Shown in pieces: positions 13,878 through 63,200 of a stretch of 64,000 nucleotides of DNA. The notes under the pieces are model-generated. The model saw only the letters and a list, made by a program, of their open reading frames with translations, was not told the origin of the DNA and did not search any database. The translations under genes were made by a program, and so were the position numbers. The first letter of the stretch is position 1, and the number at the start of each line of letters is the position of its first letter. Source of the DNA: Leucoraja erinacea (Eukaryota); the NCBI RefSeq assembly GCF_028641065.1, contig NC_073377.1, forward strand, positions 164,424,001-164,488,000, in the 5' to 3' direction.

Positions 13878-14639
13878 TTCTAAGTTTCCATGTTTAATCC
13901 CATTTGAAAGAATTGAAAACAGAAATTTGGTAAATAAAAACTCTGCAGGTCAGAATGCATATGTCTGACTTGCTCAGTGTTTCCAAAATTTGTTTATTTC
14001 AGATTTCTTGATTTTTGAAAACTTGATTTTTTATTCTATTAATATGAATTGTGGACATCAGCTCCCGAGAAAGGTGTTTACATTTTTATCATTTATTTTA
14101 ACTCGTTTTAATGATCTTCATCCTTTTTTCATGTTTTGTTTTTCTTTTTGGCTTTGCAATGGAATAGACTGTTTCAGTTGCGAGAACTGGGCTGAATTTG
14201 ATTCCTTGAAGTAGAGACGATGGAGAGGAGATCAGAAAAGATTAAGAGCTGTACAAAATTATGAGGGACATACGCAGGGTGGATAGAGTAAATGTTTTCT
14301 CCATAGCAGAGATAGCTGAAAGAGGGCATTGGTTAAATATAAGGAGCGAAAGAGTTAGAGGGAATCTGAGAAAGTAAAAATCAGCATTCTGCAGCACACT
14401 GCTTGATAAAGTGGTAGAGCAGAGATTCACATAACACTTCTGTATCTAAAAGTATATGAATTGCCAAGGCAAAGAAGGTTCTGGACCAACTACTGGTAAA
14501 TTAGATTAATGTAGATGGGTGCTTGGTGATTTCCAGCGAAAGTTGCATTTCTTGCACAGGCAGTCCCTGCGCCAGTTAACAAGTTGCTCGCTAAAGTTCC
14601 AATAAGGGTTAGTTCGGAGCCCACCCGTGGGGCCGAGGC

Positions 14640-16373
14640 ACTGTATGATCAGCATGCTGGTTATATTTGGGTGTGGCGGCTCCCAAGGATGCCCTTACGC
14701 TGGACGCCTCGGAGTTGGCGGTTGGTGCCATGCTGGAACTGATGGACGGGGGTTGGCGGCCCCTGGCCTTCTTCAGCCAACACCTCAACCACGCCCAGAC
14801 GAAGTACAGCGCTTTCGACGGCGAGCTCCTGGCTCTGTGCCTGGCGGTGCGCCACTTCTGCTACTTCCTGAAGGGCCACCCATTCACCGTTTACACAGAC
14901 CACAAGCCGCTCACATTTTCCCTGGCAAAGGTTTCCGACCCCTGGTCCGCACGACAGCAGCGGCAGTTGGCGTACATCTCGGAATACACCACCTCCATCT
15001 GCTTCATCGAGGGGAAGGAGAACCGGGTGGCCGACGCGTTGTTCCGCCCCACCGTTGACGTTGTTTTCGTAGTGGCGCCCGGCATTGACTATTCTGCCCT
15101 GCCTCTAGAGGAGCAACAATCCTGTGTGATGTGTCGTCCTGTCAGCCGAGCCCCATCGTCCCTGTTGCATGGCGCCGGAGGGTTTTCAATATGATCCACG
15201 GACTGGCTCACCCATCCATCAGGGCGACGACGGCCCTTGTGGCTGCTTGGTTCATGTGACACTGCCTGCACCTGCATTCCGTGCCAGACGCCAAAAATCC
15301 AGCACCATGTCCGAGCTCCCCTCTAGGAGTTCGGTCTACCACACCGGCGTTTCGACCACCTCCACGTGGACATTATGGGGCCACTCCCGCAGTCCCAGGT
15401 CATCACCCATCTCCTACGATGGTAGACCACTTCATGCAGTGGCCGGAGGCCATACCTCAACGACTACATGCGCTCGTGCTTTGTCCGCACACTGGATTAC
15501 TCACTTTGAGGTGCCGGTGGACATCTCCTCGGACCAGGGGCCATATTTCACCTCTGAGCTGTGGTCGGCCATGGCTCACTTGTTGGGTGTTCGGCTGCAC
15601 CACACCACTATCACCCGCAGGCAAACGACCTGGTGGAGAGGTTCCACCGGCAACTCAAGGCAGCGCTGAAGGTGCGATTCTCTCCGGCCCGTATTGGATG
15701 GACGAACTGCCGTGGGTCTTGCTGGGCATCCAAACTGCACCTAAGGAGGACTTGGTCTCATCCTCAGCGGAGCTCGTTTACGGGTAGCTAATCGCGGTGT
15801 CTGGGGAGTTTGTGCCGTCAGTGCCGGGGCAGCAGGGAATGCCGTCATCCACTCTACAGGCTCGTGCCCGTGCTGACGTCCCATCATGGGACATTCCGCC
15901 CACACGTATCATCGGCCCTCCAGGACTGCCCCAATCTATGAAGGCCCGTCCAGGGTGCTGGAGCACGGATAGGCAACCTTTGTGTTGGACATGGGGGGCC
16001 GGCTGGGGGCCGGCCGGAGGCCGTGTCGATTGACCGGTTAAAGCCGGCACATTTGGACATTGACCAGCCGGTGGTTGCCAGTCGGGTAGTACGCCCGCCG
16101 GTGCGTTTTGTGCCTCCTGTTCTAGCGGGGGGGGGGTCCTGTGACGGCTCCCAAGGGTCGGGCCATTTCCACTATCGAATCCCTCGGCATGGGAATGGAT
16201 GAGTCCGGGGGCGGCAAGAAAATAGACCACGACCGCGACCCCACGGAGCAGCACAAAGCATAAAGCACTCACTGAAATGAAGGTCTGATAACCAAAGATA
16301 ACACACAGCAGATCCAATGTTTATCTCCATTGACCCATGACCTGGGCATGCGTAGTCGGAATACCAAACTCGC
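14640..16373 (+). mobile_element. Degenerate Gypsy LTR retrotransposon (RNase H and integrase remnants, polypurine tract, start of 3' LTR)
   Basis: DASELAVGAML...RPLAFFS...KYSAFDGELLA...FTVYTDHKPL (RNase H); frameshifted integrase pieces (ISSDQG, YHPQANDLVERFHRQLK, WMDELPWVLLGI); G-run PPT ~16127-16136 then TG at 16140. Confidence 0.88.
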
Positions 16374-49930: not shown

Positions 49931-51297
49931 ATAACAATTAAACACTTTTGACTCTCTTGACCATGATTAAACAGCAGCGTATTTCTATACATGGCCCATG
50001 TGTAAGGCAAAACCTAATATGAATGTCATCACCAAAATAAAACAATATAATACGTTCCCTTAATGTAGGAGACGCCACAAAACAATAGATGAGATAAAAG
50101 AATTGAGATGCCCTGCAGAGGGTATGGAAAACAGGAAAAAAAGTATAAGCCAGTAGTGACTACAAAGCTTAAGGTTTAAAACCCTGAAGATTGGTGTAGG
50201 GAAACGCCAGCCAAGCTTACCACAGACTGCCAGGGCAGAGATGATGGCCAAGCGAGCATGATGCAATTCAAGTGTATCCAGCAGATGGGGTGTGTCAATG
50301 AAATAATGCTATGTGAAGAGTATTAGCTGACATATATGTGGACAGCAAAGGAAAGCACGTGTCACTGAAGCCTCATTATACAAAACTATTTATTTTCAGT
50401 TTTCAGAATTCTTCACGTTAATAATGATTATAACAATGGTAGCTACTATAGATGAGCGTTATGTGCTGTGAAAGCCCGTTGTGCTCTTATTGTTTCCAGC
50501 CCCACTGGCATATGATTTTGATTTTCATTCTGATTCTTATCCAACTTGTATTTGATTGCCAACAATATTTAAGAAGTCTGAGTAGGCAATGCTTTGAGAT
50601 CACATTGCTTTTGACAGTGAAATACTTTATCCTTGCATCGCAGAAGGGAGGTGTTATTGGAATACTTTAGATGATTTGACAATGGGGGAAGTGATTATGC
50701 CAAAACAGCATTTAAAAATATTTTCACATTTTAGACAACCACTATAAAATGATTTTTTTTTTCTTACAATAGTAGATAAGGTTTGGAAATGGGCTTCTGG
50801 GAAAAAAATGTAAGTTTTGCATTTGAATTATAAATTTGTATATATATCTACCAATGAAGGAATGCAATCTCATTTAAATATTAAGTGTATTATAGAGATC
50901 AACATGTATAAAAGCCCAAAACATAAAATCTGTCATGAGTTCTGGAAGTCACGGTCACTGGCCAGAAATTAAGATATCAAATAGTGGACATTAGCATAAA
51001 ACTATCTAGTACTTGAAAGATGCAATAACTATTACTTCTTGTGTCGTGATGTTCAATAATTAATTATAATTGTATAAATTAGATAAGCTTTTCGACTCTT
51101 AGAATTACCATCACACATTATACGAACAGACTAAAAATGGAAATGCATTCTGGATGAGTTAATTCAGATTGCCAGTTTCATACAAAAATCATCCAAACCC
51201 AGTTATCTTATTCAGTGATGCAAATGTTCATGTATTTATGAAGAATAAAGTAGTAGGAAATGGTTCAATTTCCATTACAAATGAAAAGAAATGACCT

Positions 51298-51433
51298 TCT
51301 TCTTGCGTATGGTGTGCACAGCCTAAAGTTGTAGGACAACTTGTTCTAATTGATCTTATTTGATTGTGCACGCCAGGTTGATTGCATTCCTTGAAACAGG
51401 GAGGACTACGTGAAGGTTGCAATCTCCCACCCC
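51298..51433 (-). mobile_element. 136-bp non-autonomous retroelement (SINE-like) with HDV-like ribozyme head and (GAA)n tail
   Basis: Exact 14-bp TSD aaaagaaatgacct at 51284-51297 and 51434-51447; minus-strand 3' end ...catacgcaagaagaag; no tRNA A/B boxes seen. Confidence 0.8.
51380..51433 (-). ncRNA. HDV/CPEB3-like self-cleaving ribozyme fold (this copy mutated)
   Basis: P1 GGGGTGG/CCTCCCT (G1.U wobble, 1 mismatch); P2 GATTGCA/TGCAATC perfect; P3 ACC/AGT; L3 TTCACGT; J4/2 GGAA instead of CGAA. Confidence 0.7.
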
Positions 51434-51774
51434 AAAAGAAATGACCTGAACAACTATTACTTAGTATTTACGTTAAGGAAAAGTGCTGTAGAGTTGCCCA
51501 AATATTCACATCTTTTTCCATCACAGTTCTAAATGGCTAAATCAGTGTCCTGTAACTACCTATTCCTTTTGGCATCTACCTTGTCCATTCTCTCTTGTGG
51601 AATCTTAAATATTTCAATTAGATAATTTCTTCAAAGTTCTAGCTTGAGCAAGCCAATTCTCATTTCCCATTCCTCGCTGTCCATTCCAGGATTCAATCTA
51701 GTGAATCAATGCTGCAATGCTTCCAGGATGAGCATGTTTTTTTATTTTGAAAATGTATTGACATGAATTGTTAA

Positions 51775-59603: not shown

Positions 59604-60245
59604 AGAAACATAGAAACATAGAAAATAGGTGCAGGAGTAGGCCGTTTGGCCCTTCGAGCCTGCACCACCATTCAATATGATCATGGCTGATCATCCAACT
59701 CAGTATCCTGTTCCTGCCTTCTCTCCATACCCCCTGATCCCATTAGCCACAAGGGCCACATCTAACTCCCTCTTAAATATAGCCAATGAACTGGCCTCAA
59801 CTACCTTCTGTGGCAGAGAATTCCAGAGATTCACCACTTGCTGTGTGAAAAAGGTTTTCCTCATCTCGGTCCTAAAAGATTTCCCCCTTATCCTTAAACT
59901 GTGACCCCTTGTTCTGGACTTCCCCAACACCGGGAACAATCTTCCTGCTTCAAGCCTGTCCAACCCCTTAAGAATGTTGTAAGTTTCTATAAGATCCCCC
60001 CTCAATCTTCTAAATTCTAGCGAGTACAAACTGAGTCTATCCAGTCTATCTTCATGTGAAAGTCCTGACATCCCAGGAATCAGTCTGGTGAACCTTCTCT
60101 GCACTCCCTCTATGGCAAGAATGTCTTTCCTCAGATTAGGAGACCAAAACTGTACGCAATACTCCAGGTGTGGTCTCACCAAGACCCTGTAGAACTGCAG
60201 TAGAACCTCCCTGCTCCTACACTCAAATCCTTTTGCTATGAAACT
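59604..60245 (-). mobile_element. Young CR1 LINE 3' part with open 182-aa ORF2 C-terminus
   Basis: ORF 59700-60248 LVRPHLEYCVQFWSP...FKRELDVAL; (tttctatg)n tail. Confidence 0.93.
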
Positions 60246-63200
60246 CAAATCCTTTTGCTATGAAACTCACTAGATTACTAGAAACTCACTAGATTACTAG
60301 AAGGACAGGTCTGATGTTTCATAGTTTGTAAATATATTTCATCACAGTCATTATGGGAAAAATGCCTACACACGATAGCTTCCTGCAGATATATTCACTT
60401 TTAAGAATGGTGATTAGTGTCTGTAATCTTGGACTCTGGCAGATCACAATATAGTGTTAATGAGACTGAAAATAGTTTGGTTCCCACTTAAAAATTCAGT
60501 GCAGTGATTGCAAATTGAGCAATGGCAGCTCTTCAACAATGGGAGCTAGTCAGAGATGTCCTTTTTTGTCCAACATTCAACATCATGTAGGAGATTCAAA
60601 TGTTTCAAAGGTATTTTATTGTCACGTGTACCAATTAAGGTACAGTGATATGCGAATTACCATACAGCCATACGAAAAAACAATTGAATCCATAGGGGTG
60701 AAATTATATCCACAGGAGGTAGAGTTATTACCAGTCTTGGAATTGGTGAAAGCATTTAGCTGATGGATGAGGAGGAACAATAATTGTAACAGGACTAGAA
60801 AAAGAGCTGGCACTTATAGGATGAAAAATAATTTTGAACCAAACAGCATTTTAATTAACAACTTTCAATTCAATAATGTTAATTATCAATGAACAGCATG
60901 AATTTGAAAAAGCCAAGCATGTTTAAATACCAAGATTTCAACTTCACCTCCAAGAAGACATCAGCTGTTGTAGTAGACTATGGTTGCAATGGGAACTGCA
61001 GAATGATTAACAGTATTTTTGCATGCAGTAGCTAAATCGATGAGGTACACATTCCACATATAACTGAAATGTGGACTTCAAGCCAGAAAAAATGTTTGCA
61101 AGCATAAGATCCTGAGGATTTTGTATCTAAAAATCAAACAAATACAAATAAAAAATATTGTATAACAATAAACAAAAGAAAACCAGCATGTTTGGGTGGC
61201 ACCAACTTCTCAAAATGAATGTTTAATAGTTCAGTAAAAAGGGGAAAAAGAGAAGAAATTAAAGGTGTGGTTAGAAAATATCAAGCGATGGATTAACATC
61301 ATAATATATCCAAGCAACAGCTGTACCTCAGAAGTCAAAGACAACATTTGTTGATATTTATTACCTACAGAAACAATGGAGAGTTTTCCCAGTTAATGAA
61401 CCAGGCAAAGAATCCATAGCAGCAATAGTCACTCACCTCCTCTTTCCATATCTTTCTGCCATGTGCACAATTCAAGTCGGGAGTATGATGAGATATTGAA
61501 TGAGAGCAATACCCAGGCTTGGCTAATAACATTGCCCAAATGCCTGGAGATGAACAAAAAATGTTGGTTATAATAACAATACATTTAGGACAAAGCAACC
61601 AGTCTGATTCACTCCTCATTGACTGCAATAAATATGCACCAACTCTGCAGTATGCATCAACTACAAAATACACTGCAGCAACTCGTCAAGATATTTTCTT
61701 TTGCAGCATCTCTTTCTTTATGATCTGTACAATCTGGAAATACAAGGGTAGTGGGCTCATGAACATAACATCACCTGTAAATCCCCTTCCAAGTTCACAC
61801 CATTTTAAGTCCAAAATATATTACATTCCTTCTTGGTCGCAGGTGGAAATCCTGAAGCAACAAGTGAAAGCCATCAGTTGGTCCAGAAGGTGCACAATCT
61901 TGCCTTCTCCAAGACAAAAGCGATAAGCATCAAATACTGGGTTTGTTCCCATCTATGTGGTTTTAATAATAATGACAAGTAGGCTGAGCAGCCAATATGA
62001 TTCTCACAAACAGCCAAATGGGAAGTAAAGGTTGCTGAGATATTATTGCACAGTTCTACCATGGAAAAAAATTACAGTACCTAAAGAAACTTTGTTACAA
62101 AATCTATGAGGGGATTTGTTTCTGAAGTAATGTGAAGCAACTCTTTAGGTAAAAGTAAATTAATGATAATGTGTTTATAAAGCGTGTTCATATTCCATTT
62201 AAGTTTTGTGTGCTGTTTTAAGTACAGATACTTTGGTCAATGAGTTTTTATTCACGATAAATTGTATCTGTATTTAAAAAATGCTAACCAGAATATTGTA
62301 ATTTTTGAATGTTGTGATATAACAATAAAATACAATTTCTAATCAAAATAGTCAGAAGAACATTCCACAGTTGTTATTTCTGGATCGGAGACCATCATAT
62401 ATAGCAAATGGCAATTCAAAGAGAAATAAATAGATTTGGGTTTGACTGCCATATCACTTTGAGCACTCCGAATTAAATTGATGCCAACAAATCATCTCAA
62501 CTGGATGTCAGGGATTTTTACAAAGCAAAGCTGAAAGGCCTCAACTTTAGTTGTGTTGGCAAAAAATGGCTGAAATATAAAGATGATAACTCTGAGCAAA
62601 TTGTTACTAAGATGTTTCAGCAGTAGTGAGAACAATTTGTACAGTAAGTGACAATATGCTGAAATTCAATCGGGCTGTAAAAGCTCAAGGTAGAAACATT
62701 ACTCTTGGTTCAGATGTAATAAAAAGTTGCCCGGTGTCTTGTGGTTGACATCATGATGCCAACAACTAGAAATCGTTTAATTACCAAGCTCTTAGACCCT
62801 TAGGATATTGTTGTTTTTCAAGATTTTAAAATTTACGAATTTACACATTTCTGATGGGTTGTTTTTCAGAACAAGTAGAGAGATATTAAAAAAGGAATTT
62901 GTCAGGCATAAAGATTATAATGATATCATCGAATTTATGGATAGGATAACCTTTTTATCTGTAAATATTCATTCCGTACTGATAACCTGTTATATTAACC
63001 TTCAAAGCAGACCAATAATGCTTTTTGTAAACACTTCTTTGAAGTTTTCATTATTGTGTTCAAAACTACGAAGATTCTGGTTTGTAAGTATATCACGAAG
63101 ATTTGATAAGATCATTTCAATTTCTGGGCACATCCATCGGTCCAGTTTTGAAGAAAAAAGTACATAGATGAAATGATAGTATTGGCATTAGTAACAGTCT

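What the first reader, a model, noticed from the sequence alone, without database searches (positions are those of the whole stretch)
51284..51447. Ribozyme-headed SINE: CPEB3/HDV-like fold whose G1 is exactly the insertion's 5' end
Seen: a 136-bp insert with an exact 14-bp TSD. The minus strand begins GGGGTGG GA GATTGCA ACC TTCACGT AGT CCTCCCT GT TTCAA GGAA TGCAATC. This is the HDV nested double-pseudoknot order: P1 with G1.U wobble (6/7 paired), perfect 7-bp P2, P3 (2/3), 7-nt L3, a single C-G P1.1 pair next to U.U, and essentially no P4. From recall, L3 UUCACGU and the CU-GU junction match the mammalian CPEB3 ribozyme. The predicted cleavage site, 5' of G1 (51433), coincides with the TSD boundary. 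The 3' half is also structured (GGCGTGCACA/TGTGCACACC stem enclosing AAGTTGT-CCT-ACAACTT) and ends in (GAA)n. No Pol III boxes are seen. Inference: a family that frees itself from host read-through transcripts by self-cleavage and borrows a Vingi/Ingi-type RT, possibly relevant to the origin of CPEB3-type ribozymes. Caveat: this copy has G at the catalytic C position (51390; GGAA instead of CGAA) and two stem mismatches, so it is probably inactive.
Basis: partly seen in the sequence, partly recalled or inferred. Interest (0 to 1): 0.9.

Follow-up and report, generated by a model that had tools for sequence, protein, structure and literature searches.

The report
Ribozyme-headed jumping element; CPEB3 ribozyme relatives
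This is a damaged copy of a short jumping element, present in thousands of copies in a cartilaginous fish, that begins with a likely self-cutting RNA inherited from a Vingi-type retrotransposon; sister retrotransposons in the same genome begin with a near match to the mammalian CPEB3 ribozyme, which suggests where that ribozyme came from.

Summary
The 136-bp insert and 14-bp duplication are real. It is one copy of a family of roughly 10^4. In 87 copies chosen by their 3' end, 81 reach the 5' end; 77 of those keep the catalytic C, and P1/P3 pair in most copies. This copy is a decayed one. It is not a Pol III SINE but an internally deleted Vingi-type LINE: I found the partner (single ORF, endonuclease + RT, no RNase H) with the same head and tail. 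Heads of eight Vingi-type elements covary on the HDV fold (12 of 18 pairs change on both sides). In one public RNA run (unnamed organism), 1,554 reads have loose ends at G1, mostly the template-switch oligo with no cap G, as self-cleavage predicts. Cleavage itself is untested. Ribozyme-headed deletion derivatives are a known kind (NARTc, R2 SIDE). New in the searched literature: the Vingi clade, a P4-less ribozyme in a vertebrate, and sister Vingi families in this genome scoring up to 64.9 bits on Rfam's mammalian CPEB3 model, one copy matching 43 of 46 nt. The finding's own family is only a distant cousin of CPEB3 (21 of 38 nt).

The parts
51434..51447 (-). Target-site duplication, copy upstream of G1
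   Evidence: Identical to 51284-51297
51380..51433 (-). HDV-like ribozyme head, element positions 1-54, P4-less; inherited from the 5' end of the partner LINE; predicted cleavage 5' of 51433
   Evidence: Same head at the 5' end of full-length LINE L417 and in five 5'-inverted LINE copies; covariation
51427..51433 (-). P1 5' strand (G1-G7)
   Evidence: helix 1 is 100% paired across 8 heads
51418..51424 (-). P2 5' strand (positions 10-16)
   Evidence: 7 of 7 pairs show two-sided changes
51405..51417 (-). P3 stem and 7-nt L3 (positions 17-29); position 27 (51407) is mutated in this copy
   Evidence: G27 in 78 of 83 copies
51396..51404 (-). P1 3' strand (30-36) and G37-U38 of P1.1; position 32 (51402) is mutated in this copy
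   Evidence: Position 32 is G in 65 and A in 17 of 82 copies, both pairing with U5
51387..51390 (-). J4/2 with the catalytic position 44 (51390); G in this copy, so probably inactive
   Evidence: C44 in 81 of 85 aligned copies
51380..51386 (-). P2 3' strand (48-54)
51340..51379 (-). Body: about 25 nt of the LINE 5' UTR, then a rearranged middle of about 15 nt; holds the 5' arms of the two 3' stems
   Evidence: LINE matches the element up to position 77-78; intermediate forms
51298..51339 (-). Last ~40 nt of the partner LINE (end of ORF, stop codon, short 3' UTR) and (AAG)n tail; inferred recognition site for the LINE protein
   Evidence: Element positions 95/100-139 match LINE 3' ends at 89-100%
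51284..51297 (-). Target-site duplication, copy after the tail

Best explanation
The insert is a decayed copy of a non-autonomous, internally deleted derivative of a Vingi-type LINE. SHOWN: head and tail come from that LINE; most copies start at G1 and are flanked by TSDs of about 11 bp; the head has every HDV-fold element and covaries across the clade; RNAs of the family with a 5' end at or next to G1 exist in cells. INFERRED: a copy is transcribed inside a longer Pol II transcript; the head folds into the nested double pseudoknot and cuts 5' of G1 using C44; the freed ~140-nt uncapped RNA is protected by the fold; the LINE protein, supplied in trans, binds the 3' ~40 nt and inserts it by target-primed reverse transcription. 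Any intact copy in a transcribed region could then act as a source, with no promoter needed.
For: Partner: LINE 3' ends share the tail. L417 has head, ORF and tail inside an 11-bp TSD, 2,776 bp. Five of 30 mid-ORF LINE loci carry the head inverted at their 5' end. Family: 2,525 and 2,503 exact hits of two 29-nt words; 13 of 90 tail-anchored copies hold the head word, giving about 17,000 copies. 81 of 87 reach positions 1-5; the TSD abuts G1 in 60 of 71; the -1 base varies (T39 A18 C14 G10), so nothing upstream is carried along. The commonest head variants (10% of copies or more) sit at unpaired positions (8, 24, 25, 41, 42, 45) or keep the pair (31, 32); 24 and 25 are conserved L3 bases hit by CpG decay in 8 and 12 of 83 copies. 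Covariation on 8 heads: 97.9% of cells paired, 12 of 18 pairs two-sided, 0 of 500 shuffles reach it, slid controls 41-50% paired. Intact copy L018: best Rfam matches are two HDV families at exactly the head. RNA: in run X22, 1,554 reads have loose ends before G1, with the full template-switch oligo ending in three G as consensus (agreement 0.8), against 295 flank-like loose ends one base upstream; run X24 shows a template-switch oligo at the same place in part of 505 reads. Capped RNA gives one extra base at such junctions and about 90% of uncapped RNA none (PMC6885630, passages).
Against: No cleavage assay. Rfam scores for this family are weak: 20 bits against a cut-off of 50, and no CPEB3-model match; the window copy has none. 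Only 25 of 81 copies keep all pairs and core bases. Non-CpG divergence is similar in head (3.3%) and body (4.1%), so single copies show no clear constraint. In DNA contigs of X17, C44>T (about 6% of depth) is not rarer than at some tolerated CpG sites. The RNA junction also fits a capped start at G2 or an exonuclease stall. Run X21 shows only read-through and no pile-up of ends; the runs are from unnamed organisms C and E that may be relatives; reads are not independent and cannot be split by locus. The covarying heads were partly picked because they fit the fold. All four partner copies translated are broken.
Confidence: 0.8

Rival explanations
1. The head is mainly an internal Pol II promoter (like Pr77 of L1Tc) that starts transcription at G1 or G2; the ribozyme is a back-up or vestige.
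For: The L1Tc/ingi head is both promoter and ribozyme (PMC4035085, passages). A capped start at G2 gives the same read junction as an uncapped G1. A-runs follow element positions 124-131 in 676 X22 reads (183+161+332), which could be poly(A) tails on a discrete short transcript.
Against: Across Vingi-type heads the paired positions change freely while pairing is kept, which fits an RNA fold rather than a DNA promoter. Genomic copies keep G1 (69 of 69 aligned at position 1), and P1 needs it. The A-runs may be oligo-dT priming on the (AAG)n tail.
Confidence: 0.12
2. The fold no longer cuts in this P4-less family but serves as an exonuclease block or protein-binding site; 5' ends arise by trimming of read-through transcripts up to P1.
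For: The R2 ribozyme fold is described as giving cap-like protection from 5' exonucleases (PMC13708176, passage). Trimming also leaves uncapped G1 ends. Only 5 nt join P1.1 to the catalytic C.
Against: C44 is kept in the LINE and in all subfamilies seen while the neighbouring base 45 varies (G56, A18, T11). P4-less HDV-like ribozymes are a described class (PMC10879173, passage). In X22, changes at core sites 24, 25 and 44 are about half as frequent on the sense as on the antisense strand (ratios 0.48-0.53; seven other CpG sites 0.71-2.12), a weak sign.
Confidence: 0.07
3. An ordinary SINE whose HDV-like pairing is chance.
For: No ribozyme match and an unremarkable folding energy for the window copy.
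Against: Head shared with a LINE 5' end, covariation across the clade, no tRNA or Pol III boxes. The strict descriptor gave 0.33 hits per strand pass on shuffled loci and recovered L018.
Confidence: 0.01

Closest known systems
NARTc / RIME / SIDER of trypanosomatids (L1Tc/ingi clade, Pr77 head)
   Same: [quoted passage not shown]
   Different: Here a vertebrate, an RNase-H-less partner, a 54-nt P4-less head, and about 10^4 copies.
R2 SIDE and R2/R1 SIDE of Drosophila
   Same: 5' ribozyme joined to the LINE 3' end, moved in trans (PMC3414825, abstract).
   Different: R2 is rDNA site-specific; this family inserts genome-wide with TSDs of about 11 bp.
Bipartite non-autonomous Vingi derivatives (Vingi-1_EE) and SINE2-1_ACar
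   Same: Vingi is one of four clades reported to yield ORF-less bipartite derivatives (PMC5786205, passages).
   Different: [quoted passage not shown] No Repbase or Dfam comparison was possible, so the family may already have a name.
Mammalian CPEB3 ribozyme (Rfam RF00622)
   Same: Same spacing to position 38, same L3, single C-G P1.1 and G37-U38.
   Different: This family matches 21 of the first 38 nt (my count, L018 against the consensus line), lacks P4 and does not hit the model. Sister families B, C and D are far closer.
Minimal (P4-less) HDV-like ribozymes and theta ribozymes
   Same: No P4 domain (PMC10879173, passage).
   Different: Those came from metagenomes of unknown origin or from phages; this one heads a vertebrate retroposon.

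Membership tests
HDV-like ribozyme | Nested double pseudoknot P1, P2, P3, P1.1 in order | tested here: met
   Descriptor recovers L018 with no mismatch; covariation. The window copy has two mismatches and is missed by the strict descriptor.
HDV-like ribozyme | G1-Y at the base of P1, U..CG in L3, catalytic C then R-R-A in J4/2 (descriptor in PMC6326823, passages) | tested here: met
   Family majority has G1.U36, U20, C24, G25, C44, G45, A46, A47; the LINE and older subfamily have U45, as in the Rfam HDV consensus. Not met in the window copy (G44).
HDV-like ribozyme | Score above an Rfam HDV-family cut-off | tested here: not met
   RF00094 20 bits (cut-off 50), RF02682 14.4 (cut-off 44); these models are narrow and contain P4.
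HDV-like ribozyme | Mg2+-dependent self-cleavage 5' of G1 | not testable with these tools
   Indirect only: RNA 5' ends at G1 without an extra G.
CPEB3 ribozyme family RF00622 | 35 bits or more on the model | tested here: not met
   No match at E<=10 for the window copy or L018. Met by 48 of 59 scored places elsewhere in the genome.
Bipartite non-autonomous LINE (SIDE) | 5' and 3' ends from one autonomous LINE, no ORF | tested here: met
   Positions 3-77 and 95-139 match the two ends of L417; L207 is a plain deletion form.
Bipartite non-autonomous LINE (SIDE) | Marks of target-primed insertion: variable TSD and simple-repeat tail | tested here: met
   TSD found in 71 of 81 full-length copies, median 11 bp.
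Vingi clade (partner) | Single ORF with APE and RT, no RNase H (PMC13708176, passage) | tested here: met
   APE and RT in partner pieces, weak zf-RVT at the end; closest intact relative P0001 (72% identical, 1,019 aa) has no RNase H; none of the 120 listed homologs carries PF00075.
Vingi clade (partner) | Groups with named Vingi elements, sister to Ingi | tested here: inconclusive
   Quick tree: partner and family B lie in one clade (SH-aLRT 99) apart from three Ingi-like ORFs, two of them confirmed to carry RNase H. No named Vingi reference was available, the careful tree did not finish, and the sister relation was not resolved.
Pol III SINE (tRNA, 7SL or 5S head) | Small-RNA-derived head with A and B boxes | tested here: not met

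The most novel reading that the evidence does not exclude
A CPEB3-type HDV ribozyme is the standard 5' end of Vingi-clade retrotransposons, and the mammalian CPEB3 ribozyme is a domesticated 5' end of one such element, close to family D seen here. This genome would then hold the missing outgroup, at least five ribozyme-headed families, and thousands of intact P4-less ribozymes that cut host transcripts in vivo.
Probability: 0.65. Interest if true: 0.87.

Novelty: new variant of a known kind. Interest (0 to 1): 0.72.

Why it matters
[quoted passage not shown] Here 48 places in a cartilaginous-fish genome exceed the Rfam cut-off for it, and most of those inspected are 5' ends of Vingi-type retrotransposons or their short derivatives. 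The likeness extends to the P4 stem, which the fold does not require, so common descent is the simplest reading and can be tested directly. The finding's own family adds a natural mutant library of about 10^4 minimal ribozymes, a visible path from LINE to SINE-like element without any Pol III promoter, and a possible source of transcript cuts wherever intact copies lie in sense orientation. Vingi elements are being used as gene-insertion tools with their native 5' UTRs (PMC13708176, passages), so a ribozyme there has practical bearing.

Tried and rejected
Rfam on the window copy: no ribozyme family. Nimb-like LINE as partner: the top 30 PF14529 loci share no ends with the element. Looking for the partner just behind the ribozyme: 30 of 84 matches inspected gave only deletions, older subfamilies, inversions and interruptions; the tail-side search found it. 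A T at -1 as part of the element: seemed so in the 30 best-scoring loci, rejected in the unbiased sample. Strand invasion as the cause of the template-switch reads: it would place the oligo's G run over G1-G3, but the consensus shows three G before the element's four, and -1 is G in only 10 of 81 copies. Selection on C44 from CpG asymmetry (4 TG against 18 CA): A45 is linked to T62 (p=2e-6), so it is largely one subfamily and not independent evidence. The ORF in L407 as family D's: long branch, about 27% identity, dropped. Descriptor scan of the 77 metagenome loci: the strict version hit only L316 and L367 near an ORF start, plus three hits elsewhere (L332, L333, L377 minus strand) that I take as chance; the relaxed version on 18 upstream regions hit L316 only; further heads in L377, L349, L351, L356, L338 and L301 were read by eye. 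No RNA holder on record was listed in the run index. No earlier scan findings. Ruminski 2011, Kojima 2011 and Webb and Luptak 2011 are not held. Paper searches were swamped by fish papers and say little. No supplements were read; those of PMC5786205 hold SINE and LINE sequences that may bear on whether this family is named.

Full report
OBSERVATION. The insert at 51298-51433 and its 14-bp flanking repeat are as described, as are the pairings and the G at the catalytic position 51390. Alone the copy is unconvincing: no ribozyme among 6 Rfam matches at E<=10, folding z-score -0.99. The host is a cartilaginous fish by inference: the exon at 44226-44843 is ANKRD50, 86% identical to two sharks and 70% or less to all other listed proteins; the genome has 2.19 Gb.

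THE FAMILY. Two 29-nt words from head and tail occur exactly 2,525 and 2,503 times, with zero hits for the reversed controls. Of 90 tail-anchored copies 13 hold the head word, which gives about 17,000 copies, a rough figure. To test the 5' end without bias I took the first 90 of the 2,503 tail-anchored hits, all on contig C1, and dropped 3 near-duplicates. Of 87, 81 reach positions 1-5. A TSD was found in 71 of these 81, median 11 bp, abutting G1 with no extra base in 60. The base before G1 varies (T39, A18, C14, G10). C44 is kept in 77 of 81; 25 of 81 keep every pair and core base. The window copy differs from the majority at positions 27, 32, 42, 44 and 85, so it is a decayed copy of an intact design. 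The intact copy L018 has two HDV families as its best Rfam matches, exactly on the head but below cut-off, and no CPEB3 match.

THE PARTNER. A pattern demanding the tail but not the usual upstream bases gave 68 hits; 3 of the 30 inspected were LINE 3' ends whose ORF stops within the shared tail. Walking upstream gave a single-ORF element with APE, RT and a C-terminal zinc knuckle and no RNase H. Five of 30 mid-ORF loci carry the head inverted at the 5' end, and in L169 the inverted part runs from the head into the ORF start. L417 is a full-length, non-inverted, decayed copy: head, ORF and tail in 2,776 bp within an 11-bp TSD. Many of its homologs are proteins of about 1,000 aa, and none of 120 listed has RNase H. 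A quick tree places it in a clade (SH-aLRT 99) apart from Ingi-like ORFs with RNase H. That fits Vingi as defined in PMC13708176 (passages); no named Vingi was on hand. Intermediates show the path: plain deletions (L207; L103, L111, L117), then forms with a rearranged middle, then the main subfamily. On the way the head changed at positions 32 (keeps its pair), 45 (variable in HDV ribozymes) and 8 (unpaired), while the body gained a stronger stem with the tail (-23.9 against -9.1 kcal/mol for one copy each).

THE FOLD ACROSS THE CLADE. Related LINEs from metagenome contigs (77 loci) carry HDV-like heads just before the ORF: L316 and L367 by a strict descriptor, and L377, L349, L351, L356, L338 and L301 read by eye; others of the 18 regions examined showed none. 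L377 scores 25.2 bits (E 4e-5) and L316 15.8 bits on RF00622. On 8 heads (two of this family, four other families of this genome, two metagenomic) the named structure is 97.9% paired, 12 of 18 pairs change on both sides, no shuffle of 500 reaches these values and slid controls pair 41-50%. The heads were partly chosen for fitting, but all lie at 5' ends of Vingi-type elements or of short derivatives with the same kind of tail.

RNA. Reads were laid on L018 (G1 at 1503). In single-cell run X22, 1,554 reads have a loose end before G1 whose consensus is a whole template-switch oligo (recognised from recall) ending in three G, agreement 0.8; 295 reads end loose one base upstream with mixed flank; smaller rows were not shown. 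Run X24 shows an oligo at the same place among 505 reads (agreement 0.41). Run X21 shows read-through only. Capped RNA mostly adds one base at this junction and uncapped RNA about 90% none, and uncapped RNA starting with G is favoured (PMC6885630, passages); template switching is used to read ribozyme cleavage products (PMC8233481, passage). So the reads fit uncapped RNA starting at the predicted cut. They also fit a capped start at G2 or exonuclease stalling, come from an unnamed organism that may be a relative, and are not independent.

MECHANISM. Most likely (0.8): read-through transcription, self-cleavage 5' of G1, recognition of the 3' 40 nt by the LINE protein in trans, target-primed insertion. 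Origin of head and tail, insertion marks, fold conservation and G1-ended RNAs are shown; catalysis, the source of transcription and protein binding are inferred from R2 and L1Tc work (PMC3414825 abstract; PMC4035085 passages; PMC6765202 passages).

THE CPEB3 LINK. Searching the genome with RF00622 gave 48 of 59 scored places over the 35-bit cut-off, best 64.9; none of 14 control genomes passed it. I inspected 26 of the 59 and added family D copies. They fall into four further families. B (12 of 26) is the 5' end of a younger 3.15-kb Vingi-type LINE, copies about 94-97% identical; its head matches the CPEB3 consensus at 32 of the first 38 nt, with compensatory changes. C (6) and D (3, plus 5) are older. 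Several C and D heads (L382, L400, L401, L409, L410, L415) lie back to back with inverted ORF pieces, mostly 43-66% identical to family B. E (5) is a second short, P4-less family with an (AAG)n tail. Family D is the closest: copy L413 matches the Rfam consensus at 43 of 46 nt and L408 at 53 of 59 outside the L4 loop, including both arms of P4 (my counts). P4 is not required by the fold, being absent in the finding's family, so structure alone does not explain this. The finding's family matches 21 of 38. Descent of the mammalian ribozyme from a Vingi-type element is therefore my most novel reading (0.65). Not tested: direction, horizontal transfer, and whether any hit lies in this genome's CPEB3 gene.

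WHAT IS KNOWN. Ribozyme-headed deletion derivatives are established (NARTc, RIME, SIDER, R2 SIDE), and Vingi is known to yield bipartite derivatives; the list of ribozyme-bearing clades in PMC5786205 (passages) omits Vingi. [quoted passage not shown] PMC8256844 (passages) notes structure-based relatives in lamprey, lancelet and sea urchin, and spread by retrotransposition. Only 2 held papers contain both Vingi and HDV, and in the passages seen neither links them. Searches showed no listing that reports a Vingi ribozyme or a retrotransposon origin for CPEB3's; I saw listings and the passages named, not whole texts. Three key papers are not held, Repbase, Dfam and patents were not searchable, and I recall without a source that Vingi gene-writing patents may describe an HDV-like 5' UTR.

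VERDICT. A real feature and a new variant of a known kind. The element alone would merit about 0.5; the in vivo 5'-end signal and the CPEB3-like sister families raise it to 0.72.

Noticed in passing
L413 (G000:C19:8183453), L408 (C11:20932435-20932505), L409-L412, L415, L407: Family D: old heads up to 43 of 46 nt identical to the mammalian CPEB3 ribozyme consensus, P4 included; L409, L410 and L415 lie next to inverted Vingi-type ORF pieces.
   Followed up: partly
L388-L395, L379-L387 (e.g. G000:C18:37371500-37376200): Family B: younger 3.15-kb Vingi-type LINE, copies about 94-97% identical, head up to 62 bits on RF00622, (AAG)n tail and TSDs.
   Followed up: partly
L378, L382, L397, L399-L401: Family C: heads with a short P4, best RF00622 score 64.9 bits; L378 is a short head-plus-tail derivative with a TSD.
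   Followed up: partly
L402-L406: Family E: a second short non-autonomous family with a P4-less head, an apparent 6-bp P1 and an (AAG)n tail; partner not sought.
   Followed up: no
L066, L080, L084: Copies whose core between the two P2 arms is inverted, at three separate loci among 30 inspected; would destroy the fold.
   Followed up: no
L155, L161, L164, L168, L169: Of 30 mid-ORF partner loci, 5 carry the head as an inverted 5' piece lacking its first 3-15 nt; only one non-inverted full-length copy (L417) was found. 5' inversion close to the head seems common.
   Followed up: partly
L099, L105, L108, L112, L113, L115, L116, L119, L120: An element ending in a short shared terminal motif, probably a small DNA transposon, is repeatedly inserted at nearly the same site near position 107 of the element.
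   Followed up: no
L301:420-560: Metagenomic Vingi-type head with a two-pair P1.1 and a long hairpin inserted between L3 and P3, read by eye.
   Followed up: no
window 44226-44843 (-): ANKRD50 first coding exon; the insert lies about 6.5 kb upstream on the same strand.
   Followed up: yes
window 14606-15787 (+): Broken LTR-retrotransposon pol fragment (RNase H and integrase-like frames, by recall of motifs).
   Followed up: no
window 59700-60257 (-): 3' end of a CR1/L2-like LINE ORF, by recall of motifs.
   Followed up: no
L031-L059: A Nimb-like LINE family (name recalled) with open frames up to about 1,270 aa, apparently young.
   Followed up: no
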